Of a DNA stretch of 64,000 bases, positions 44,250 to 55,617 are shown one piece after another. Position numbers and translations under genes: made by a program. The stretch comes from Solirubrobacteraceae bacterium (GTDB lineage: Bacteria; Actinomycetota; Thermoleophilia; Solirubrobacterales; Solirubrobacteraceae): positions 54,497 through 118,496 of the forward strand of contig DATAXK010000025.1 of assembly GCA_036266805.1 (NCBI GenBank). The letters run 5' to 3'. The notes beneath the pieces were generated by a model that was not told where the DNA came from, ran no database searches, and saw nothing but the letters and a program-made list of their open reading frames with translations. How positions within the stretch are numbered: position 1 is the stretch's first letter; each line of letters starts with the position of its first letter.

Positions 44250-47200
44250 ATGATCGCTCGTCGTTTGAAGCTGCCGGTGATGGTCCTTGGGTGTGTGCTG
44301 GCTGGTGCGGTGGGGTTGATGGTGGCACCCGCTTTGGCGCTGGCTGCTCCGATAACTCCGGTGTTGTATGCCGTGTCGCAACGTACCCCGGAAACCGTGA
44401 CGGTGCTCGGTGTGTTGAATCTCGAAAGCGAAACCGAAGGCGGTAGCGAAGGCGGCATTTACGAATTTCTCTATAAAGAATCGGCGAGTGGGGAATGCGA
44501 AGGAGCGGATCATTCGCTGCCGGTTCTGTGGTCTGGATCGCAGGCCCAATTTCCTGAAGGGACGCTCTCGGGTTTGAAACCGGGCAAGACCTACGCGGTG
44601 TGTCTACGTGTGGAAAACAGCACCGCGGAAACGGCTGTCAGTAAACCATTCACGGTTACGACGGCGATCGCTCCTGAAGTGCCGACGGGCGAGGAAGCCA
44701 AACCAATTGCCGCGAGAAGCGCGACGTTGCACGGCGTGTTGAACCCCGGTGCCGAACGCACTGTGGAACCCGGCAACTATGAATTCGTGTACAGCCGCTC
44801 CTCGAGCGAATGCCAGGGTCCGGAAGAAAAGACGACTTCGCCTGTCACGGGCAGCGGCGCAAAGGGCGAGACCGTGGAAGCACCGGTAGCAGAACTGCTC
44901 TCGCATACTCAGTACACGTTCTGTTTGCGTGAGAGCAACGAAGCGTCGCCAACCGAATCGGTGTTGGGGGCGCCCGTGACGTTCACGACGCCGGCGGGGG
45001 CGCCGCGGATAGAAGCAGAGTTCACGAGCGAAGTAGCTTCGACCAGCGCGACGCTGCACGCAACGATCAACCCAGAAGGCGCCGAAACCTCATACGTTTT
45101 CGAATCCGCTCCCGTTGGCGGTACGTTCGCTCCTGTGGTGGAAGCCGGGGGCGAGGGTGATATCCCGGAAGGAGCGGCCGGTGTGCCGGTGAGCGTGCAT
45201 GTGCAGAAGGGCTTGGTTCCTGGCGCCACCTATGAGTTCCGTGTGGTCACGAGCAACTCGGTGGGAAGTGTGACCGGTGGGACGGTCACCTTCACAAACC
45301 AGCATGCGACGACCGAACTCGCGCTTCCCGATGGTCGCCAGTATGAAATGGTCTCCCCGCTGCAGAAGGAGGGTGCGCTGTTCTTGCCTATTCGCGAAGG
45401 CATCATCCAGGCCGCGGCTGACGGGAACGCTTTCACCGACGAGAGCGCCTTCGAGCCGATCGAAGACGGTGCTGCCGGCGCTTATGGTTTCCATGAGGCC
45501 GATTTCTTTGGTCGTGGTCCCGGTGGGTGGGTATCCAAGACGATCACGCCGCCTCACCCTGCAAGGGGCGCGGTGCCACTATACGGGGGGCAGGAATATC
45601 GGTTTTTCTCGGAAGACCTCTCCGAGGCTATTTTGCAGCCGTTTGGTCCCACGACTCCGCTCGCGCCCGGTGTGAGCGAATCGACACCCTATATCCACAC
45701 CGATTATCTAAATGGCGATCAGGGTGAACTATGCGGTACGGATTGCTTTCAACCGCTGGTGACCGAAGCCAACGTGCCGGCCGGCACAAAGTACGGGGAA
45801 GAAGAAAGCGAACCCTGTAAGAACCGTAGGCCCATCTGTGGTCCAGAAGTTGTTGCGACGAGCCCAGACTTGAGCCACGTTCTGATCAGCTCGGATGTCG
45901 CGCTGACAGCCGGCTCCGGTGGGGGACGGTATGAGTGGGTAGGCGGCAAGTTGACATTCATCACCACCGGGCGCGTGGATGCGATCTCCGACAACGGGTC
46001 GCTCGTCATCGATGGGTCCTATGAAGGGATGGAAGGGTTGCTGTTGCACGACGCCGCGACGGGCGAAACGATTCGCCTCGACGTGCCGCAGGGTAGCGGT
46101 CTGTCGCCGGTACCACCCGGACAGGCGTCGTTCCAAGCAGCGAGCGCCGATGTCTCGAGGGTCTTCTTCACCAGCGAACAGCCGTTGGTCGGGGGTGTGA
46201 GCGAACCGGCTCTCTATGAATACAACCTGAACGCTCCGGCGGGTAGCCGCCTGACCGATATCAGCGCCGATGAGAACTCCGGCGAAGCGGCTGGTGTGAG
46301 CTCGGTGCTGGGGACGAGCAATGACGGCTCATATGTGTATTTCGCGGCGAGCGGGGTGCTCGCACAGGGCGCCACTCCCGCGAAATGCGACAGCGAAACG
46401 CCCGTATGCATGAATCTGTACGTGCATCACGACGGGACAACCACGTTCGTCGCGGGACTCGGTGAAGAAGACTATCCGGACTGGATCGTCAACCGGGGCG
46501 ATCGCGTGACCGCGCGCGTGTCACCTAACGGGCAGTGGCTAGCGTTCATGTCAAACCGCGATCTGACGGGTTATGACACCGATGACGCCGTCAGTGATCA
46601 TCCCGATGAGGAGGTCTACCTATATGGTGCCTCCGCCGGCAAGCTCGTCTGCGCTTCGTGCGATCCGACCGGCTCACGCCCTGTGGGAGTGGAATACGGC
46701 GAAAGCGAATCCAGGCTAGTAGACGGCCTCAATGTCTTTCCCGATAACACGTGGATCGCGGCGAACGTGCCGCCATGGACGGACTTCGAAAGCTCTAAAG
46801 CGAGCTATCAGTCACGGTATCTGTCCGATAGCGGCCGCTTGTTCTTCGACAGCGGCGATGCACTTGTTTCGCAGGATGTGAACGGCACACAGGATGTGTA
46901 TCAGTACGAGCCGCACGGTGTGGGTAGTTGTACGTCTGGCACTTTGACGTTCAGTGAACGCTCGGATGGTTGTGTCGATTTGGTCTCCTCGGGGGAATCC
47001 GCTGAAGAATCGACGTTCCTCGACGCGAGTGAAACGGGTGGGGACGTGTTCTTCCTGACGTCCTCAAAACTCGTCGGACAGGACACCGACAATGCGTATG
47101 ACATCTACGATGCGCGTGAATGCGGTAGCCCGTCGCGGTGCTTGGCGCCCGAGTCGGTGAGTCCGCCGCCGTGTGACACGGGCGATTCCTGTAAGCCGGC

Positions 47201-47459
47201 GTCCACGCCGCAACCGGCGATCTTCGGGTCGCCTTCCAGCGCGACGTTCTCAGGCGCGGGGAACGTCACGCCGCCAATTGGGACGCCCGCGGTCAAAACG
47301 AAGGCGTTGACGCGCGCGCAACAGTTGACGCGGGCGTTGAAAGCGTGTCGTGAGAAGAAGAGGGGCAAGCGGCGAAATACGTGCGAACGTCAGGCTCGCG
47401 CGCGGTACGGCGCAAAGAAAGCGCGTAAGGCCAATGCAATCAAGAGGAGCGGACGATGA
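44250..47459 (+). CDS. Large secreted protein: 3 FN3-like domains, beta-propeller-like region, Cys/Lys/Arg-rich tail
   Basis: Signal peptide ...APALALA; three ATL(H)G/NP...YxF...L.PG..Y repeats; repeated S.DG..V.F blades; tail ALKACREKKRGKRRNTCERQARARYG. Confidence 0.85.
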   Translation: MIARRLKLPVMVLGCVLAGAVGLMVAPALALAAPITPVLYAVSQRTPETVTVLGVLNLESETEGGSEGGIYEFLYKESASGECEGADHSLPVLWSGSQAQFPEGTLSGLKPGKTYAVCLRVENSTAETAVSKPFTVTTAIAPEVPTGEEAKPIAARSATLHGVLNPGAERTVEPGNYEFVYSRSSSECQGPEEKTTSPVTGSGAKGETVEAPVAELLSHTQYTFCLRESNEASPTESVLGAPVTFTTPAGAPRIEAEFTSEVASTSATLHATINPEGAETSYVFESAPVGGTFAPVVEAGGEGDIPEGAAGVPVSVHVQKGLVPGATYEFRVVTSNSVGSVTGGTVTFTNQHATTELALPDGRQYEMVSPLQKEGALFLPIREGIIQAAADGNAFTDESAFEPIEDGAAGAYGFHEADFFGRGPGGWVSKTITPPHPARGAVPLYGGQEYRFFSEDLSEAILQPFGPTTPLAPGVSESTPYIHTDYLNGDQGELCGTDCFQPLVTEANVPAGTKYGEEESEPCKNRRPICGPEVVATSPDLSHVLISSDVALTAGSGGGRYEWVGGKLTFITTGRVDAISDNGSLVIDGSYEGMEGLLLHDAATGETIRLDVPQGSGLSPVPPGQASFQAASADVSRVFFTSEQPLVGGVSEPALYEYNLNAPAGSRLTDISADENSGEAAGVSSVLGTSNDGSYVYFAASGVLAQGATPAKCDSETPVCMNLYVHHDGTTTFVAGLGEEDYPDWIVNRGDRVTARVSPNGQWLAFMSNRDLTGYDTDDAVSDHPDEEVYLYGASAGKLVCASCDPTGSRPVGVEYGESESRLVDGLNVFPDNTWIAANVPPWTDFESSKASYQSRYLSDSGRLFFDSGDALVSQDVNGTQDVYQYEPHGVGSCTSGTLTFSERSDGCVDLVSSGESAEESTFLDASETGGDVFFLTSSKLVGQDTDNAYDIYDARECGSPSRCLAPESVSPPPCDTGDSCKPASTPQPAIFGSPSSATFSGAGNVTPPIGTPAVKTKALTRAQQLTRALKACREKKRGKRRNTCERQARARYGAKKARKANAIKRSGR

Positions 47460-50400
47460 GCGTGGGTATGATCAAGAGAAGCCTCATTGGCGTTGTCGCG
47501 CTCGCACTTGTCAGCCTGTGCGTGCAGGTCTCATCGGCGCTAGCTGTTCAACCGTGGTGGAAGCTGCAGGTCGATAGTGCCCCCGCGATCCTGCAGCCCG
47601 GTCAGGGACGAGACGAGGTTCAGGAATTGACGGTCACGGCAACCGGTGGCAGTTTTATTTTGGGAAACGAAACGAATTCGTACGTGTCTCATGAATTTGC
47701 CTGGGATGCTACGCACCAGGAATTGCAGGAAGGCCTTGAAGATATGTTCGGTAGGGGCGACGTGGAAGTTCCGAGTGGGCAGGGCAACGTTGCGGGTAGC
47801 GATCCTTACCGGATCATATGGAAAGATCGCTACATCGAACGGTTGGAATTCGGGGGCGGGAGCTTGTCTGGAGGTGCGACGATCAAGCAAGTCAGTCGGG
47901 GTCGCAGCGAAGCGACGCTGATCTTGACGGCGGCAAATATGGGCGATAGGGATCTGACGGGGCCCGTGAAGTTGACCGCGAAACTACCGGCGGGCATGAC
48001 CGCGGTGCAGATCACCGGGTCAGGGGGGTTCGGCAACGTCAACCCGATTGAATGCGATGCGGAAACGCTGAGCTGCACATACACGGGTATCACGGCTCCC
48101 TACGAGCAGGTCGAGTTGGTCATCCAGGTGAGCTTGAATCCGGGGGCGCATTCGGGTGAAGCGGTTGAACTGTCGGCGAGTGGCGGTAACGCTCCGCCTG
48201 CCAAGAGGACGCGTGCGATGACCGTCGGGAGCGTGGCGCCGTCGTTTGGTGTCGAGAACTATGAATTGGCTCCAGAAGAAGAAGGCGGCTCGCCCGCGAC
48301 GCAGGCCGGTTCACACCCATTCCAGCTCACGACAACGGTGACGCTCAACGGGGGCCCACTCGAAAACTATTACAACTCCAAATATCAGCCACAACAGGTC
48401 GAAATGCCCAAGGATCTCGTGTTCAAGATCCCTCCGGGCTTGATCGGCAACCCGACGCCGTTCCCGCAATGCACGGTCGCGCAATTCGACCAATCGAACC
48501 GCGAGGTAGACGAATGTCCAAACGACACGGCGATAGGTGTCGCGTCGGTCACGATCGTATTCGAAGCGGTTGTCGCGACCTTTCCCGTGCCGCTCTTCAA
48601 TCTGACGCCGTCTGCCGGTGAGCCCGCACGCTTTGGCTTCGACGTGCTGAACAACCCAGTGTTCCTGGATACATCGGTACGCACGGGTGGTGATTATGGC
48701 GTGACGGTGAAGGTCACGAACATAACCCAACAGGTCGCGTTTGTGGGTAGTCGAGTGACGTTCTGGGGCGTGCCGGGCGATCCGCGCCACGACGAGCAGC
48801 GTGGCTGGAGCTGCCTCGCCGATGGGCATGAGCAGCTAGAATCCGCAGGTAGGTTCGCGCCGTGCACTGCCGTGGGTCAGCGTTTGCCGCCGCCGTTGTT
48901 GGAGTTGCCGACCTCGTGCACGGGACCGTTGCAGACCACGCTGGAAGCCGATTCGTGGCAGAGCGAGGGTAGTTTCTCGTCCGTTGGTCCCAATACGCCG
49001 TTGCCGAGCCTCGATGGTTGTAACAAGCTGCCGTTCAACCCCTCTATCAGTGTCGCACCGGACGGGCAGGCTGGTAGTACTCCCACGGGGTTGACGGTGG
49101 GTATCCATCTTCCTCAGGAAGTGAGTTTGGATGGGGAAGGGTTGGGTGAGGCCGTTGTGAGGAACACGACTGTCGCGTTGCCCGAAGGAGTCGTGTTGAA
49201 CCCCTCTGCCGCCGATGGCCTGTCCTCTTGCTCTGAAGGCGAGGCTGGGCTCTCCGAAGATCGTGCGGTGTCGTGTCCCGATGCGTCGAAGGTTGGGACG
49301 GTGAAGATCAAGAGTCCATTGCTGCCGAATGCGCTTGAAGGCGCGGTTTATTTGGCAGCACAAGACGCCAACCCGTTCGGGAGCTTGGTCGCGCTGTATG
49401 TGGTTGCTGAAGATCCTGTGTCTGGGACGTTGGTCAAGGTTGCTGGCGAAGTCGTGTTGAATCAGCAGACCGGCCAGTTGGTCTCGACGTTCAAGAACAC
49501 TCCCCAACTCCCGTTTGAAAACTTTGAACTGCATTTCTTTGGTGGGGAACGAGCACCACTGGCGACCCCCAGCGCTTGTGGGGCGTATACGACGAACGCG
49601 TCGATAGAACCATGGTCTGGTAATCGGACGGCTGAACCGTCTTCGACGTTCGATGTGATCTCCGGCCCCAACGGCAGTCCCTGCTCCAACCCGCTGCCGT
49701 TCGGTCCGTCTTTGACGGCTGGCACGACGAGTATTCAGGCTGGTGGGTTCAGCCCGTTTACGATGACGATGAGCCGCACCGACGGCCAACAGAACCTGAA
49801 GGTAGTGCAACTGCACATGCCTTCGGGCCTATTGGGTTTGGTGTCCTCGGTCGATCCGTGTGGGGAACCACAAGCCGACGCGGGTACATGTACTGCCGCG
49901 AGCCTGATCGGGCATACGACCGTCAGCGTTGGTATTGGTGGGGACCCGTATAGCGTGACCGGCGGGGAAGTGTTCATCACCGGACCGTATGAGGGTGCCC
50001 CCTACGGACTGTCGATCGTGGTGCCGGCGGTAGCCGGCCCATACAACCTCGGGAAGGTCGTGGTACGAGCGAAGATCGAAGTGGATCCGTTGACGGCGAA
50101 TTTGACGGTTACGACCGATAGCAGTGGTCCGTATGCGATCCCGACGATCATCGATGGCATCCCGTTGCAGATCCAACACGTGAACGTCACGATCGACAGG
50201 CCAGGATTCATTTTCAACCCAACCGATTGTGCGCCGTTGGCGGTCAGTGGGAGCCTAACGAGCGATCATGGCGCCGTATCCACCTTGAACGTGCCGTTCC
50301 AGGTCACCAACTGTGCGACCCTCGGCTTCAAACCGAAGTTGACGGTCGCTACTTCGGGGAAGACGTCGCGTAAGAACGGGACGAGTCTTTTGATCAAGAT

Positions 50401-50986
50401 CGCTTATCCCAAGGGAGCGATCGGCAAAGAAGCATGGTTCAAGGGCGCGAAGTTCGATTTCCCAAAACAGCTTCCCGCTCGCCTGACGACGCTGCAGAAG
50501 GCTTGTCCGGCGGCAACGTTCAATAGTAATCCCGCCGCTTGTCCCGCGGCGTCGAAAGTTGGGACGGCCATCGTGCATACCTCTGTGCTACCAGGAGTGC
50601 TCAACGGCGTTGTGTATTTCGTGTCGTATGGTGGTTTGAAGTTCCCTGAAGCGGTGATCGTGCTGCAGGGCGATAACGTCACCGTCGATCTGCACGCCGA
50701 AACGTTCATCAGCGAAAAGACCGGTGTGACGAGCGCGACGCTTAGGAGCATTCCCGGTGTTCCTTTCGAAAGCGTCGAAGTCAACCTCCCGGCTGGTCCG
50801 AACTCCGAGTTCGCCGCCAACGGGAACCTATGCACAGCCAAACTGGTGATGCCCAACGCGTTTACCGCACAAAACGGGCTGTCCATACACCAAAACACCC
50901 CCGTTACGACCACCAACTGTCCAAAGCACAAGACGACGAAGAAAGTCAAGAAGAAGCCCAAACACAAGAAGACCAAACACAAGTAG
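47456..50986 (+). CDS. Large secreted protein: DUF11/Ig-like domain, four Cys-pair repeat modules, Lys-rich tail
   Basis: Signal peptide ...VQVSSALA; ATGA overlap; repeated P.G...C-x(9-14)-C...S.VG motif; tail CPKHKTTKKVKKKPKHKKTKHK. Confidence 0.85.
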   Translation: MSVGMIKRSLIGVVALALVSLCVQVSSALAVQPWWKLQVDSAPAILQPGQGRDEVQELTVTATGGSFILGNETNSYVSHEFAWDATHQELQEGLEDMFGRGDVEVPSGQGNVAGSDPYRIIWKDRYIERLEFGGGSLSGGATIKQVSRGRSEATLILTAANMGDRDLTGPVKLTAKLPAGMTAVQITGSGGFGNVNPIECDAETLSCTYTGITAPYEQVELVIQVSLNPGAHSGEAVELSASGGNAPPAKRTRAMTVGSVAPSFGVENYELAPEEEGGSPATQAGSHPFQLTTTVTLNGGPLENYYNSKYQPQQVEMPKDLVFKIPPGLIGNPTPFPQCTVAQFDQSNREVDECPNDTAIGVASVTIVFEAVVATFPVPLFNLTPSAGEPARFGFDVLNNPVFLDTSVRTGGDYGVTVKVTNITQQVAFVGSRVTFWGVPGDPRHDEQRGWSCLADGHEQLESAGRFAPCTAVGQRLPPPLLELPTSCTGPLQTTLEADSWQSEGSFSSVGPNTPLPSLDGCNKLPFNPSISVAPDGQAGSTPTGLTVGIHLPQEVSLDGEGLGEAVVRNTTVALPEGVVLNPSAADGLSSCSEGEAGLSEDRAVSCPDASKVGTVKIKSPLLPNALEGAVYLAAQDANPFGSLVALYVVAEDPVSGTLVKVAGEVVLNQQTGQLVSTFKNTPQLPFENFELHFFGGERAPLATPSACGAYTTNASIEPWSGNRTAEPSSTFDVISGPNGSPCSNPLPFGPSLTAGTTSIQAGGFSPFTMTMSRTDGQQNLKVVQLHMPSGLLGLVSSVDPCGEPQADAGTCTAASLIGHTTVSVGIGGDPYSVTGGEVFITGPYEGAPYGLSIVVPAVAGPYNLGKVVVRAKIEVDPLTANLTVTTDSSGPYAIPTIIDGIPLQIQHVNVTIDRPGFIFNPTDCAPLAVSGSLTSDHGAVSTLNVPFQVTNCATLGFKPKLTVATSGKTSRKNGTSLLIKIAYPKGAIGKEAWFKGAKFDFPKQLPARLTTLQKACPAATFNSNPAACPAASKVGTAIVHTSVLPGVLNGVVYFVSYGGLKFPEAVIVLQGDNVTVDLHAETFISEKTGVTSATLRSIPGVPFESVEVNLPAGPNSEFAANGNLCTAKLVMPNAFTAQNGLSIHQNTPVTTTNCPKHKTTKKVKKKPKHKKTKHK

Positions 50987-51034
50987 AGAGGCCATCGCCG
51001 CCGGAAGAGGCTCCAGGTCGCTAGCGTTAGCCAT

Positions 51035-52066
51035 GTGACACAAGCATTCTGCCGCCACAACCGTTTCGTCCAGCGTTGCCCGATCTGTCGCGACACCATA
51101 CCCGGACAGAAGCTCAAGCCCAAGCGGCAAGGTGGCGGCAGCGCTCGGACCAACGGTGGGATGGGGGCGGCGTCGCGTGGCGGGGCGAGCGCCGTGCGCG
51201 CAACCGGGCGCACCTACGCGCGTCGCACCCAGGAAGTGCGGGTGCATCGCGAGGCGCGCTCCGAGGACGACGGCTATCGCTGTGAGCTTGTTCCGGGACT
51301 TCACTCATCCGAGGACGCGCTGCGGCTGGTGCGGGAGATCGGGTTCGCAAGCGGGAGACTGCTCACGCTCACCGCCGCGCCGCCCGACCTATACGCGGAG
51401 GCGCGCGATTGCGGGGACGTCGAGCAGACGACCTGGATGTGCTTCCTGGCCGCCTATCTGTCGCCCTTGCAAGGCGCACAGCCCTTTGTCGGCATCCGCC
51501 AGGCACTGCTCTCGAGTTGGGCATCGGGCACGATCCCCGACATCGCGGAGGTTCCGCTCGGACCGCGCAGCTCCCACGACCCTGCCCGCGGTGGTGAGAC
51601 CCTGGTCGCGTACCGACGCTTCGCCGAGAACGCCGGCTCGCAGCAGCTGGCCTTTACGGGCGAGCCCGAGTGGACTCCGCAGCGACGCTTCGCGCGGCTG
51701 TTCGAGCGCCTGGCGCTACCCGGCTTCGGACGCATGGGCCGCTACGACCTGCTGGTCACGCTGGGGCGCCTCGGCCTCTACGAGCTGCGCGCCGACTCGC
51801 TGCAGCTCGTCACACGCTCCGCGCAGGCATCCGATCTCACGCCGCAGGCCGTCAAGCGCGTCTTCGCGATCGGCGATCCGCTGATCATCGAACGGCGCGC
51901 TCAAGTGCTCGCGGAGGCCGCCGCGATCCCGATCGAAGCGCTCGATCTGGCGCTTTACAACTGGAGCGTGGTGGACCCGACGCGAGAACGCGCGACGCTC
52001 GGCTTCGCGCTCGACATGAGCGATGAGCACGGGCTCGAGCAAGCTGAAGCGGCGCTCGAAGTCTGA
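51035..52066 (+). CDS. Hypothetical protein, probably alpha-glutamyl/putrescinyl-thymine pyrophosphorylase clade-3-like, with N-terminal Zn-binding motif
   Basis: FCRHNRFVQRCPIC; TWMCFLAAY, FGRMGRYDLLVTLGRLGL, ALDLALYNW resemble recalled aGPT-PPlase3 motifs; TAGCGT 7 nt before GTG. Confidence 0.55.
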   Translation: MTQAFCRHNRFVQRCPICRDTIPGQKLKPKRQGGGSARTNGGMGAASRGGASAVRATGRTYARRTQEVRVHREARSEDDGYRCELVPGLHSSEDALRLVREIGFASGRLLTLTAAPPDLYAEARDCGDVEQTTWMCFLAAYLSPLQGAQPFVGIRQALLSSWASGTIPDIAEVPLGPRSSHDPARGGETLVAYRRFAENAGSQQLAFTGEPEWTPQRRFARLFERLALPGFGRMGRYDLLVTLGRLGLYELRADSLQLVTRSAQASDLTPQAVKRVFAIGDPLIIERRAQVLAEAAAIPIEALDLALYNWSVVDPTRERATLGFALDMSDEHGLEQAEAALEV

Positions 52067-52106
52067 TCGAAAAGTTACGTCCACACCGGCCCCTAAAGTG
52101 CCGGTT

Positions 52107-52562
52107 ATGCCGCTCTGCTTCATCGAGCCACACGACGCGATACGCGTAATCGCGGATTCCGTCGGCCGCGAGGCCCGCCGGCAGCTCGTCGGAGAGGTCG
52201 TGCGCGCATGGGTCGACGATCTCCCCGACCAGGAGCTCACGTTCCACTACGAGCGCGCGATCGCCGGCTTGGATCAGGACGACCTACACCTACTGGCCGC
52301 CTGGCACGCCTCGCTCGAGGTCGGCCATCCCGTGCCCAACACCGACTTCCTCGTCGGCGTCTTTCCGAGCCTCGGCGAGAATCGCCGCGAGGCGCTGAAG
52401 ATCGCCGCCGGCTTCAAAGGCGAGGAAGCCTTCCAAGCCGGTGTCGCCGAGGAACAGGCGCTCGACACCGTGTTGCCGCACCTGTCCCGCGCCCGCGCCA
52501 TCGAGCTGGCCGAGGAGTGCATCCAGCTGTATCAGTGGGACCGCCTCGGCTCCTACAACTAG
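52107..52562 (+). CDS. Hypothetical helical protein
   Basis: 151 aa; TAAAGT 7 nt before ATG 52107. Confidence 0.7.
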   Translation: MPLCFIEPHDAIRVIADSVGREARRQLVGEVVRAWVDDLPDQELTFHYERAIAGLDQDDLHLLAAWHASLEVGHPVPNTDFLVGVFPSLGENRREALKIAAGFKGEEAFQAGVAEEQALDTVLPHLSRARAIELAEECIQLYQWDRLGSYN

Positions 52563-54547: not shown

Positions 54548-54639
54548 TAGCCAAGAGTACCCATCGCGTGCGCGCGGACGGTCTCGGACGCAGACCATCT
54601 GCGAAGCGTGGCCCGCTGGCGCCTCTACAATGGGATGCG

Positions 54640-55617
54640 ATGTCTACGGAAACGGCCACAACGCCGAACACGGTCGAGAAGCTCCTGCTGGCCGCGCCGC
54701 GCGGATATTGCGCCGGCGTCGATCGTGCCGTGCAAACGGTCGAACGCGCGCTCGACCTGCACGGGCCGCCCGTTTACGTGCGCAAGCAGATCGTTCATAA
54801 CAAGCACGTGGTCGAGTTGCTGACCGCGCGTGGCGCCGTATTCGTCGAGGACGTCTCGGAAGTGCCGGAGGGGGCGCTCACGGTCTTCTCCGCCCACGGT
54901 GTCTCGCCGCAAGTGCGCAGCGACGCACAGGCACGCGGGCTCGAGACGATCGACGCCACCTGCCCGCTTGTGACGAAGGTCCATCGCGAGGCGGTCCACT
55001 TTGCGCAGGACGGCTACACGATCGTGCTCGTCGGTCACGCCGGCCACGAGGAGGTGCAGGGGACGATGGGGGAGGCTCCAGAGCACATCGTGCTCGTCGA
55101 GAGCGAGCGGGACGTGGACGAGCTTGTCGTCGAGGACCCCGAGCGCGTCGCCTACATCACGCAGACCACGCTCTCGGTGGATGAAACGACGGCGATCGTC
55201 AAGCGACTGCACGAGCGTTTCCCGGCGATTGCCGGTCCGCGCACCGACGACATCTGCTACGCAACCACCAACCGTCAGGCCGCCGTCAAGCAGATGGCGG
55301 GCGACTGCGACCTGATGCTCGTGATCGGCTCGCGCAACTCATCCAATTCCGTGCGTCTGGTGGAGGTCGCCCACGATTGTGGCACCGAGGCCTACCTGAT
55401 CGATCACGCCGGCGAGGTGCGCGAGGAGTGGCTTGCCGGCAAGCGCGTCGTCGGCGTCAGCTCGGGCGCCAGCGCCCCAGACGATCTGGTTCAGGATCTG
55501 CTCGACTTCTTCCGTGCGCGCGGCGTCGAGGACATATCCGAATTCCACGTGGTTCGTGAGGATGTGCGTTTTATGCTGCCGAAGCCGATCCGCGAGGCAG
55601 TCGCCGCGGCGTCTTGA
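54640..55617 (+). CDS. ispH: 4-hydroxy-3-methylbut-2-enyl diphosphate reductase
   Basis: PRGYCAGV, DATCPLVTKVH, DICYATTNRQ, SSGASAP; TACAAT 8 nt before ATG. Confidence 0.96.
   Translation: MSTETATTPNTVEKLLLAAPRGYCAGVDRAVQTVERALDLHGPPVYVRKQIVHNKHVVELLTARGAVFVEDVSEVPEGALTVFSAHGVSPQVRSDAQARGLETIDATCPLVTKVHREAVHFAQDGYTIVLVGHAGHEEVQGTMGEAPEHIVLVESERDVDELVVEDPERVAYITQTTLSVDETTAIVKRLHERFPAIAGPRTDDICYATTNRQAAVKQMAGDCDLMLVIGSRNSSNSVRLVEVAHDCGTEAYLIDHAGEVREEWLAGKRVVGVSSGASAPDDLVQDLLDFFRARGVEDISEFHVVREDVRFMLPKPIREAVAAAS

What the first reader, a model, noticed from the sequence alone, without database searches (positions are those of the whole stretch)
51035..52066. Chromosomal aGPT-pyrophosphorylase clade-3-like protein with an N-terminal C-x-H-x6-C-x2-C motif
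Seen: Zn-binding-like N-terminus, basic linker, helical core with WMCFL, FGRMGRYDLLVTLGRLGL and ALYNW. Established: aGPT-PPlases are HhH-glycosylase-fold proteins tied to thymine hypermodification, mostly in phage-type gene clusters. Here no nucleotide kinase or thymidylate-synthase-like partner is nearby and it has its own promoter. The family call is from recalled motifs. Inference: a domesticated DNA-modification, repair or anti-modified-phage factor.
Basis: inference. Interest (0 to 1): 0.65.

Follow-up and report, generated by a model that had tools for sequence, protein, structure and literature searches.

The report
Domesticated thymidine-modifying enzyme relative lacking catalytic cysteine
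This gene encodes a DNA-glycosylase-fold protein descended from the phage-type enzymes that decorate thymine in DNA; one family of soil actinobacteria has inherited it vertically as a near-core chromosomal gene, it has lost the cysteine those enzymes need, and it has gained a small metal-binding knuckle and a basic tail, so it most likely binds or repairs host DNA and does not hypermodify it.

Summary
The family call from memory holds: Pfam aGPT-Pplase3 scores just above its cut-off, 52 of 53 orthologues match it, and a profile comparison with a canonical clade-3 protein gives 95.7% probability over 229 columns. The closest solved structure to the AlphaFold model is the phage 5-PmdU glycinyltransferase PUGT (Z 10.4).

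Three new points:
- **Distribution.** The gene is near-core, single-copy and vertically inherited in one family (named hits say Solirubrobacteraceae): 175 of 201 genomes. It was not found in 294 other sampled genomes of the phylum, in phages or in viral contigs.
- **Catalytic residue.** The E-x-x-x-C motif, essential in phage enzymes, reads D304-L-A-L-X-N-W here. Cys is absent in 53 of 53 orthologues and in all 171 wider homologues with a recognisable motif.
- **Added parts and partners.** It carries an invariant N-terminal F-C-x-H-x6-C-x2-C knuckle, a basic disordered linker (+6 to +13) and its own leaderless-type promoter. No hydroxymethylase, 5-hmdU kinase or TET/JBP gene was detected in the genome.

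Verdict: a domesticated, cysteine-less variant of a known family, very unlikely to hypermodify thymidine. It is most likely a DNA-binding, base-flipping maintenance factor; the function is inferred. The scan had not noted this protein on other DNA.

The parts
51022..51027 (+). -10 promoter hexamer TAGCGT, 7 nt upstream of the GTG start (leaderless-type transcript)
   Evidence: Sequence. A TAnnnT hexamer (TAGACT 17, TACACT 5) ends 4-12 nt before the start in 30/45 orthologues vs 33/275 background genes; an SD-like core occurs in only 6/45.
51035..52066 (+). Whole gene, 343 aa plus TGA stop
51035..51094 (+). N-terminal metal-binding knuckle, residues 1-20: F5-C6-R-H8-N-R-x5-C15-P-I-C18
   Evidence: F5, C6, H8, C15 and C18 are invariant in 53 and in 45 sequences. 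pLDDT is 82-88 in the full model and 78-79 when folded alone; the model shows a beta-bridge 5/11 and a short helix 18-21. The motif is unique in the genome.
51095..51250 (+). Basic disordered linker, residues 21-72
   Evidence: pLDDT 42-67. Across orthologues: length 41-88, net charge +6 to +13, about 80% R/K/G/S/P/A/T.
51251..52063 (+). HhH-GPD-fold core related to aGPT-Pplase3/amino-acid:DNA transferases, residues 73-343
   Evidence: pLDDT mostly above 95. PUGT 8z2n_B: Z 10.4, rmsd 3.9, 212 aligned. hhalign to the canonical clade-3 protein: 95.7%, E 8.5e-9.
51710..51778 (+). Helix-hairpin-helix motif, residues 226-248 (L-A-L-P-G-F-G-R-x-x-R-Y-D-L-L-V-T-L-G-R-L-G-L); R233 and R236 invariant
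   Evidence: This is the stretch matched by the Pfam PF18746 and ADDT profiles.
51944..51964 (+). Remnant of the transferase active-site motif, residues 304-310: D-L-A-L-Y-N-W, against E-T-I-L-C-K-W in PUGT and E-D-A-V-C-N-W in canonical clade 3
   Evidence: D304 and W310 are 53/53. Position 308 is A/W/F/Y/T/S and never Cys. Cys occurs in 0 of 171 wider homologues. The Cys and Glu are essential in M6 gp51 and ViI gp247 (PMC8989533); C247 is the proposed nucleophile in PUGT (PMC11472151).

Best explanation
SHOWN: this is a divergent, chromosomal branch of the aGPT-Pplase3 / amino-acid:DNA-transferase family (HhH-GPD fold). It arose once at the root of one actinobacterial family (Solirubrobacteraceae by the named hits) and has been inherited vertically since, as a single-copy near-core gene with its own leaderless-type promoter. 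It has lost the active-site cysteine of the transferases. It keeps the neighbouring acidic residue, the HhH hairpin and the acidic/aromatic pocket residues, and it has gained an N-terminal Cys3-His knuckle and a strongly basic disordered linker. INFERRED: it no longer transfers amino acids or polyamines to phosphorylated 5-hmU. It binds chromosomal DNA through the Arg-rich HhH surface, helped by the knuckle and tail, and flips a pyrimidine (thymine or a 5-substituted uracil) into the retained pocket. It then acts as a housekeeping lesion-recognition or glycosylase-type maintenance factor, possibly for oxidised thymine such as 5-hmU or 5-formyl-U. My confidence is about 0.9 for the 'shown' part and about 0.4 for the whole statement including the repair-type role.
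For: Family and fold: Pfam 28.2 bits and 52/53 members; hhalign 95.7% over residues 77-315 to a 278-bit canonical member; PUGT Z 10.4, with every fold match of Z above about 4 in either VIA search (34 and 23 rows) an HhH-superfamily glycosylase, PUGT or the queuine-salvage enzyme DUF2419; top viral hits are mycobacteriophage amino-acid:DNA transferases. Distribution: 6/6 in the own family vs 0/294 elsewhere in the phylum; 175/201 genomes and 46/51 genera; other families of the order 0/91. Vertical descent: genus labels need 19 changes on the tree, the minimum possible, vs a shuffled mean of 35.4; conserved position after gltB-gltD-(FMO). Cys loss: with essentiality from PMC8989533. Retained residues aligned with the canonical protein or named for PUGT: D79 (PUGT D24), D128/E130/W134, R233/R236, D304, N309, W310. 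Acidic residues after the HhH: E/D250 in 48/53 and D267 in 49/53. No partner genes (control).
Against: No biochemical evidence exists for any activity. No residue-level superposition was possible, so the pocket and Asp equivalences rest on sequence alignment and secondary-structure register. The genome already has four classical HhH-GPD glycosylases, so no repair gap is evident. No LexA or PafBC motif was found upstream. The gene was not found in 26 of 201 family genomes, many of them the smallest, so it is dispensable. Essentiality of the Cys was tested only in clade 2 enzymes; for clade 3 it is inferred from one canonical sequence. The genome is 90.7% complete, so partner genes could be missed.
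Confidence: 0.4

Rival explanations
1. A non-catalytic pseudoenzyme: a DNA-binding 'reader', architectural or regulatory protein that keeps only the DNA-binding surface of its enzyme ancestor.
For: Loss of the nucleophile and of the second metal ligand (T244/D replaced by L305). Very Arg-rich (38 R of 343 residues), with a basic IDR and a knuckle, as in nucleoid or chromatin proteins. No Lys in the HhH. Constitutive-looking leaderless promoter.
Against: Pocket residues far from the DNA backbone (D79, D128, E130, W134, D304, N309, W310) are invariant or nearly so. That is more than a purely architectural role would need.
Confidence: 0.25
2. An anti-phage factor that recognises or excises hypermodified thymidines (or 5-hmU) in invading phage DNA.
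For: It descends from enzymes that bind 5-substituted uracil in DNA. An aGPT-Pplase domain is among the unvalidated predicted defence domains in DefensePredictor (PMC13092281). Actinophages carry such hypermodification systems.
Against: It is near-core, single-copy, strictly vertical and syntenic next to gltBD, FMO and sufT, not in a defence island. No PADLOC match. No partner or effector gene is conserved beside it.
Confidence: 0.15
3. A hydrolase acting on free modified nucleotides or nucleosides, like the queuine-salvage enzyme DUF2419/QNG1.
For: QNG1 structures match about as well as the glycosylases (Z 9.1 and 8.9).
Against: No sequence or Pfam link to DUF2419. The HhH hairpin with invariant Arg residues, the basic tail and the knuckle point to a polymer substrate. 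The sequence homology is to DNA-acting transferases.
Confidence: 0.08
4. A still-active thymidine-hypermodifying transferase that uses another nucleophile or direct displacement and modifies the host chromosome.
For: Pfam names it so, and the pocket is largely retained. Direct displacement was considered chemically possible (PMC8989533).
Against: No Cys at the catalytic position in any member, and no conserved Cys anywhere in the core (highest count 16/53 at one site). No dUMP hydroxymethylase, 5-hmdU kinase or TET/JBP gene was detected (control), and ThyX is the only thymidylate synthase found. The canonical relative is coupled to a ThyA-like gene, whereas this one is not.
Confidence: 0.05

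Closest known systems
PaMx11 gp46 / PUGT, 5-PmdU glycinyltransferase (Pfam ADDT; PDB 8z2m, 8z2n; clade 2 aGPT-Pplase)
   Same: It is the best structural match (Z 10.4, rmsd 3.9, 212 residues, model 73-328). It shares the HhH-derived two-lobe fold, the acidic residue and Trp of the E-x-x-x-C-x-W motif, and an N-terminal Asp (D24, matching D79) that matters for DNA binding.
   Different: There is no detectable pairwise sequence similarity. The Cys247 nucleophile and the Thr244 ligand are replaced. PUGT has no Zn knuckle or basic linker. PUGT lies in a phage cluster with a 5-hmdU kinase, a ThyA-like gene, an FAD oxidase and an acetyltransferase; this gene stands alone in a chromosome.
Canonical aGPT-Pplase3 (PF18746), e.g. 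the G640 protein L063:1402-2334
   Same: It is homologous over the whole core (95.7%, E 8.5e-9, 229 columns). Shared motifs: D-x-Y, P-G, D-x-E-x-x-x-W, G-R-x-x-R-[YF]-D-x-L-x-T-L, N-W.
   Different: The canonical protein scores 278 bits over the full profile and keeps E-D-A-V-C-N-W. It abuts a thymidylate-synthase-like gene in a low-GC3 island with a NUDIX gene and an XRE/ImmA regulator. The window's family scores 25-43 bits on the C-terminal half of the profile only, lacks the Cys and has the added N-terminal module. On the tree the canonical protein sits on a branch of about 6 substitutions per site.
HhH-GPD DNA glycosylases (Ogg2/AGOG, EndoIII/Nth, MutY, AlkA, MagIII)
   Same: Same fold (Z 5.7-9.3), an L-P-G-x-G hairpin, and conserved acidic residues after the HhH (E/D250, D267).
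   Different: No PF00730 match. No Lys in the HhH. No C-terminal Fe-S cluster loop. Which residue corresponds to the catalytic Asp is unresolved.

Membership tests
aGPT-Pplase3 (PF18746) / amino-acid:DNA transferase superfamily | Profile match above Pfam's gathering score | tested here: met
   28.2 bits against a cut-off of 25, but only profile positions 145-217 of 279. 52/53 orthologues match, best E 3.9e-14.
aGPT-Pplase3 (PF18746) / amino-acid:DNA transferase superfamily | Homology to a canonical member across the whole catalytic domain | tested here: met
   hhalign 95.7%, E 8.5e-9, 229 columns, residues 77-315.
aGPT-Pplase3 (PF18746) / amino-acid:DNA transferase superfamily | HhH glycosylase-like fold closest to a solved transferase | tested here: met
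   8z2n_B Z 10.4; 8z2m_A Z 9.3. BFVD top hit is a mycobacteriophage AADT, probability 1.00.
aGPT-Pplase3 (PF18746) / amino-acid:DNA transferase superfamily | Active-site cysteine that attacks C6 (essential in M6 gp51 and ViI gp247; C247 in PUGT) | tested here: not met
   The aligned position 308 is A/W/F/Y/T/S in 53/53. Cys occurs in 0/171 wider homologues. No conserved Cys exists in the core (PMC8989533, PMC11472151).
aGPT-Pplase3 (PF18746) / amino-acid:DNA transferase superfamily | Neighbouring essential acidic residue (Glu) | tested here: met
   D304 is invariant, 53/53, aligned with E of E-D-A-V-C and with E243 of PUGT; a conservative Glu-to-Asp change.
aGPT-Pplase3 (PF18746) / amino-acid:DNA transferase superfamily | Genomic association with a 5-hmdU DNA kinase and/or a dUMP hydroxymethylase (ThyA-like) | tested here: not met
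   None within 8 kb in 20 genomes. No PF00303, PF18723 or PF18748 match in the genome, which is 90.7% complete. The positive control rings in PaMx11.
aGPT-Pplase3 (PF18746) / amino-acid:DNA transferase superfamily | Group transfer to 5-PmdU DNA | not testable with these tools
   Needs an enzyme assay.
HhH-GPD DNA glycosylases (PF00730) | Fold with an HhH hairpin | tested here: met
   Z 5.7-9.3 to Ogg2, AGOG, Nth, MutY, AlkA and MagIII. L228-P229-G230 are conserved.
HhH-GPD DNA glycosylases (PF00730) | Match to the PF00730 profile | tested here: not met
   Not among the Pfam hits at E<=1. The four PF00730 loci of the genome lie elsewhere.
HhH-GPD DNA glycosylases (PF00730) | Catalytic Asp after the Gly/Pro-rich loop | tested here: inconclusive
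   E/D250 (48/53) and D267 (49/53, at the N-cap of helix 269-277) are candidates. No coordinates were available for a superposition.
HhH-GPD DNA glycosylases (PF00730) | Catalytic Lys in the HhH (bifunctional glycosylase/lyases) | tested here: not met
   Position 234 is variable (A/M/G/D).
Queuine salvage enzyme DUF2419/QNG1 | Sequence or profile membership | tested here: not met
   Fold similarity only (Z 9.1); no Pfam match.
Known anti-phage defence systems (PADLOC) | Profile match or location in a defence island | tested here: not met
   No PADLOC hit. The neighbours are gltBD, FMO, sufT, WS/DGAT and ispH.

The most novel reading that the evidence does not exclude
Solirubrobacteraceae have turned a phage thymidine-hypermodification enzyme into a genome-wide reader or glycosylase for 5-substituted uracils. 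This would be either an innate, non-island defence against actinophages with hypermodified T, or part of an undescribed thymine-derived base system or repair pathway specific to this lineage. In either case the Cys3-His knuckle would act as a new targeting or redox (Fe-S) module.
Probability: 0.15. Interest if true: 0.75.

Novelty: new variant of a known kind. Interest (0 to 1): 0.45.

Why it matters
aGPT-Pplases (amino-acid:DNA transferases) are known as phage counter-defence enzymes. This finding documents a cellular lineage that fixed one of them as a vertically inherited, near-core chromosomal gene, removed its nucleophile and added a metal knuckle and a basic tail. It is a clean natural example of how an HhH-fold enzyme changes job, and it warns that 'aGPT-Pplase3' labels on actinobacterial genomes do not imply thymidine hypermodification. 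If the protein proves to recognise 5-hmU-type bases, it could serve as a reagent for detecting them.

Tried and rejected
- **No signal from sequence searches.** Profile of A1 against PUGT (probability 0.15%). BLASTP of PUGT against the canonical clade 3 protein (E 1.9 and above; only the VETILCKW / MEDAVCNW stretch lines up). PDB sequence searches with the protein and with the profile. NCBIfam, PHROGs and PADLOC. tblastn against 50,697 phage records. A viral-contig scan.
- **N-terminal knuckle.** A word-based search of residues 1-40 returned only three orthologues. The isolated 32-residue model gave no fold match with Z>=2. A weak resemblance to ribosomal protein L37 was not significant (E 5.7).
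- **Regulation.** No LexA box and no PafBC-type promoter upstream. No sigma-70 consensus.
- **Downstream gene as a partner.** Rejected: it occurs in 116/121 genomes across all families of the order, whereas the target is confined to one family.
- **Vertical descent by distance correlation.** The Mantel test against gltD was weak (r 0.21, p 0.066), probably because the cluster mixes paralogues. I replaced it with the genus-label test on the tree.
- **Tools and sources not available.** The original family description (Iyer et al. 2013, PMC3763556) is not held, so I could not check whether chromosomal actinobacterial versions were mentioned there. Model coordinates are not exposed, so no residue-level superposition was done.

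Full report
**Observation.** The ORF at window:51035-52066 (+) is real: 343 aa, GTG start, TGA stop. Its codon-position GC (GC3 0.81, GC2 0.53) is typical of genes in this genome. The public protein collection holds this gene only as a 301-aa product starting at Met43. However, 50 of 52 orthologues extracted from other genomes begin M-P-[TS]-F-C-R-H-[NG]-R-x5-C-P-I-C, with the motif 2-5 residues from the start codon. The GTG at 51035 is therefore the true start, and the database call cuts off the knuckle.

**Family and fold.**
- Pfam gives aGPT-Pplase3 (PF18746) at 28.2 bits (cut-off 25), but only for residues 192-260. ADDT (PF18724) scores 21.3 bits, below its cut-off.
- At family level the link is robust: 52/53 aligned orthologues match PF18746 (best E 3.9e-14) and 34/53 match ADDT.
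- One genome from another family of the phylum (G640) carries a canonical member: 278 bits, full profile. A profile comparison of my alignment A1 with it gives 95.7% probability, E 8.5e-9, over 229 columns covering residues 77-315. The whole core is therefore homologous.
- The AlphaFold2 model built on A1 is confident: pLDDT 88.8, pTM 0.79, core mostly above 95, residues 30-58 disordered.
- Foldseek finds only weak PDB matches, all of them HhH glycosylases or PUGT. In the viral library the top hits are mycobacteriophage amino-acid:DNA transferases (E 1.6e-4, probability 1.00).
- The independent aligner ranks the phage 5-PmdU glycinyltransferase PUGT first: 8z2n_B Z 10.4, rmsd 3.9, 212 aligned; 8z2m_A Z 9.3. 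Ogg2-type glycosylases follow (Z 9.2-9.3), then the queuine-salvage enzyme DUF2419 (Z 9.1) and about 20 other HhH-GPD glycosylases (Z 5.7-8.3). In the second look at Foldseek's own matches the scores fall from 4.3 for the last HhH-superfamily entry to 2.6 for the first unrelated protein.

**Distribution and evolution.**
- The window is contig 12 of a 3.17-Mb, 90.7%-complete genome, and the gene is single-copy there.
- With the protein as query, it is found in 6/6 sampled genomes of the window's own family and in 0/294 from the rest of the phylum.
- In a denser sample of that family it is found in 175/201 genomes (111/124 high-quality) and 46/51 genera. Named database hits call these Solirubrobacteraceae.
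- With the Pfam model, other families of the order give 0/91.
- Genomes without a match include many of the smallest ones, 1.7-2.1 Mb.
- Only 713 cluster representatives among 1.84 billion proteins match the family profile. No relative was found in 50,697 phage records or in IMG/VR contigs.
- On a maximum-likelihood tree of 45 orthologues, the 20 genus labels need 19 changes, the minimum possible. Shuffled labels need 35.4 on average, and none of 200 shuffles was as low. The canonical clade-3 protein joins on a branch of about 6 substitutions per site.
- Position is conserved too: gltB, gltD, (a lysyl-PG-synthase-like membrane protein), an FMO-like monooxygenase, then the target. In this window two giant low-GC secreted-protein genes (44250-50986) have been inserted between the FMO gene and the target, as an earlier finding of this scan also described.
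- Together these results show one origin at the root of the family and vertical descent since, which supports 'domestication'.

**Context contrast.** In G640 the canonical gene abuts a thymidylate-synthase-like gene. The pair lies in a 4-kb low-GC3 island with a NUDIX gene and an HTH/ImmA-type regulator. In phage PaMx11, PUGT lies with a 5-hmdU kinase, a ThyA-like gene, an FAD oxidase and an acetyltransferase. The window's family has no such partner within 8 kb in any of 20 genomes. The window's genome shows no ThyA-family, HMUDK or TET/JBP gene. The HMUDK search does detect PaMx11. ThyX is the thymidylate synthase.

**Active site.** Lee et al. showed that a conserved Cys and a nearby Glu are each essential in M6 gp51 and ViI gp247, and that the reaction runs through a covalent C6 adduct (PMC8989533). 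The PUGT structure paper names C247 as the nucleophile, E243 and T244 as metal ligands, and W146, R94, H95, F173, D175 and D24 as DNA or base contacts (PMC11472151).
- PUGT reads E243-T-I-L-C247-K-W. The canonical clade-3 protein reads E-D-A-V-C-N-W. The aligned stretch in this family reads D304-L-A-L-X308-N309-W310.
- D304 and W310 are invariant and N309 is present in 50/53. X308 is Ala, Trp, Phe, Tyr, Thr or Ser and never Cys.
- Among 171 wider homologues with a recognisable motif, none has Cys there (Ala 83, Tyr 40, Trp 17, Phe 9 and others).
- No Cys is conserved anywhere in the core; the highest count is 16/53 at one site.
- Other residues shared with the canonical protein or PUGT are retained: D79 (PUGT D24), D128, E130, W134, the L-P-G hairpin with invariant R233 and R236, and R218, R275 and R288.
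- After the HhH there are two conserved acidic positions, E/D250 (48/53) and D267 (49/53, capping helix 269-277). Either could correspond to the glycosylase Asp or to PUGT D175. This could not be settled without coordinates.
- The HhH has no conserved Lys.

**Added parts.**
- Residues 1-20 form a small knuckle with invariant F5, C6, H8, C15 and C18. It is modelled with pLDDT about 80 both in the full protein and alone. The motif is unique in the genome and gave no fold match.
- Whether it binds Zn or an Fe-S cluster is open. The H-x6-C-x2-C spacing recalls the first three ligands of the EndoIII/MutY cluster loop; that comparison rests on my own knowledge and was not tested here.
- The linker (41-88 residues in orthologues) has a net charge of +6 to +13 and is about 80% R/K/G/S/P/A/T.

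**Expression signal.** A TAnnnT hexamer (TAGACT in 17 orthologues, TACACT in 5) ends 4-12 nt before the start codon in 30/45 orthologues, against 33/275 other genes in the same loci. An SD-like core is present in only 6/45. In the window, TAGCGT (51022-51027) lies 7 nt before the GTG and 36 nt after the upstream stop codon. This is the layout of a leaderless actinobacterial transcript and supports 'own promoter'. No LexA or PafBC motif was found.

**Interpretation.** The identity, the evolutionary history and the loss of the nucleophile are shown. Function is inferred. The pattern is a specific loss of the thiol and of one metal ligand in an otherwise conserved pocket, together with gain of nucleic-acid-binding modules and fixation as a core gene. 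It argues against thymidine hypermodification and for a DNA-binding, base-flipping protein acting on the host chromosome. I favour a repair or lesion-recognition role (about 0.4) over the alternatives:
- a non-catalytic reader or architectural protein (0.25);
- an anti-phage factor (0.15; core, syntenic, no PADLOC hit);
- a QNG1-like nucleotide hydrolase (0.08);
- a still-active transferase (0.05).

**Caveats.**
- The tallies include two unpublished genomes (G463, G302) and those include one (G535). No sequence from them was used in alignments, trees or models, and removing them does not change any conclusion.
- The 2013 paper that defined the clades could not be read.
- The scan's earlier notes hold no look-alike of this protein on other DNA.

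Noticed in passing
window:52107-52562 (+): The ORF listed as 52023-52562 (179 aa) is a real gene whose conserved part starts at the ATG at 52107 (151 aa). It has its own TAAAGT hexamer 7 nt upstream. It has no Pfam, NCBIfam, PHROG or PADLOC match, yet it occurs in 116/121 genomes across all families of the order at 51-87% identity. It is an order-wide core protein of unknown function.
   Followed up: partly
window:44250-50986: Two giant secreted-protein genes with low GC (0.60) are an insertion relative to the order gltB-gltD-FMO-target that other genera conserve. This agrees with the earlier finding e1-5258907.
   Followed up: partly
L068:8450-12412 (G640:C1, about 2648515-2652477): A 4-kb low-GC3 island in another actinobacterial family carries NUDIX (-), a thymidylate-synthase-like gene that abuts a canonical, Cys-bearing aGPT-Pplase3, and an HTH/ImmA-M78 regulator (-). 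No HMUDK_hel gene was found anywhere in that complete genome. It could be a chromosomal thymidine-modification or defence module working without the known kinase.
   Followed up: partly
window:51035-51160: The public gene call for this protein starts at Met43 (301 aa) and misses the conserved knuckle. Leaderless GTG starts may be systematically mis-called in this lineage.
   Followed up: partly
G326:C87:2041-2958 and G326:C73:26327-27253: One family genome has two full-length copies (51% and 47% identity to the query). Several others show two matches that may be split genes. This could be a paralogue or contamination (5% in G326).
   Followed up: no
window:53036-54598 (-) and 54568-55617 (+): The WS/DGAT and ispH ORFs as listed overlap head to head by about 30 nt. 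The ispH Pfam match begins at residue 40, so its true start is probably later.
   Followed up: no
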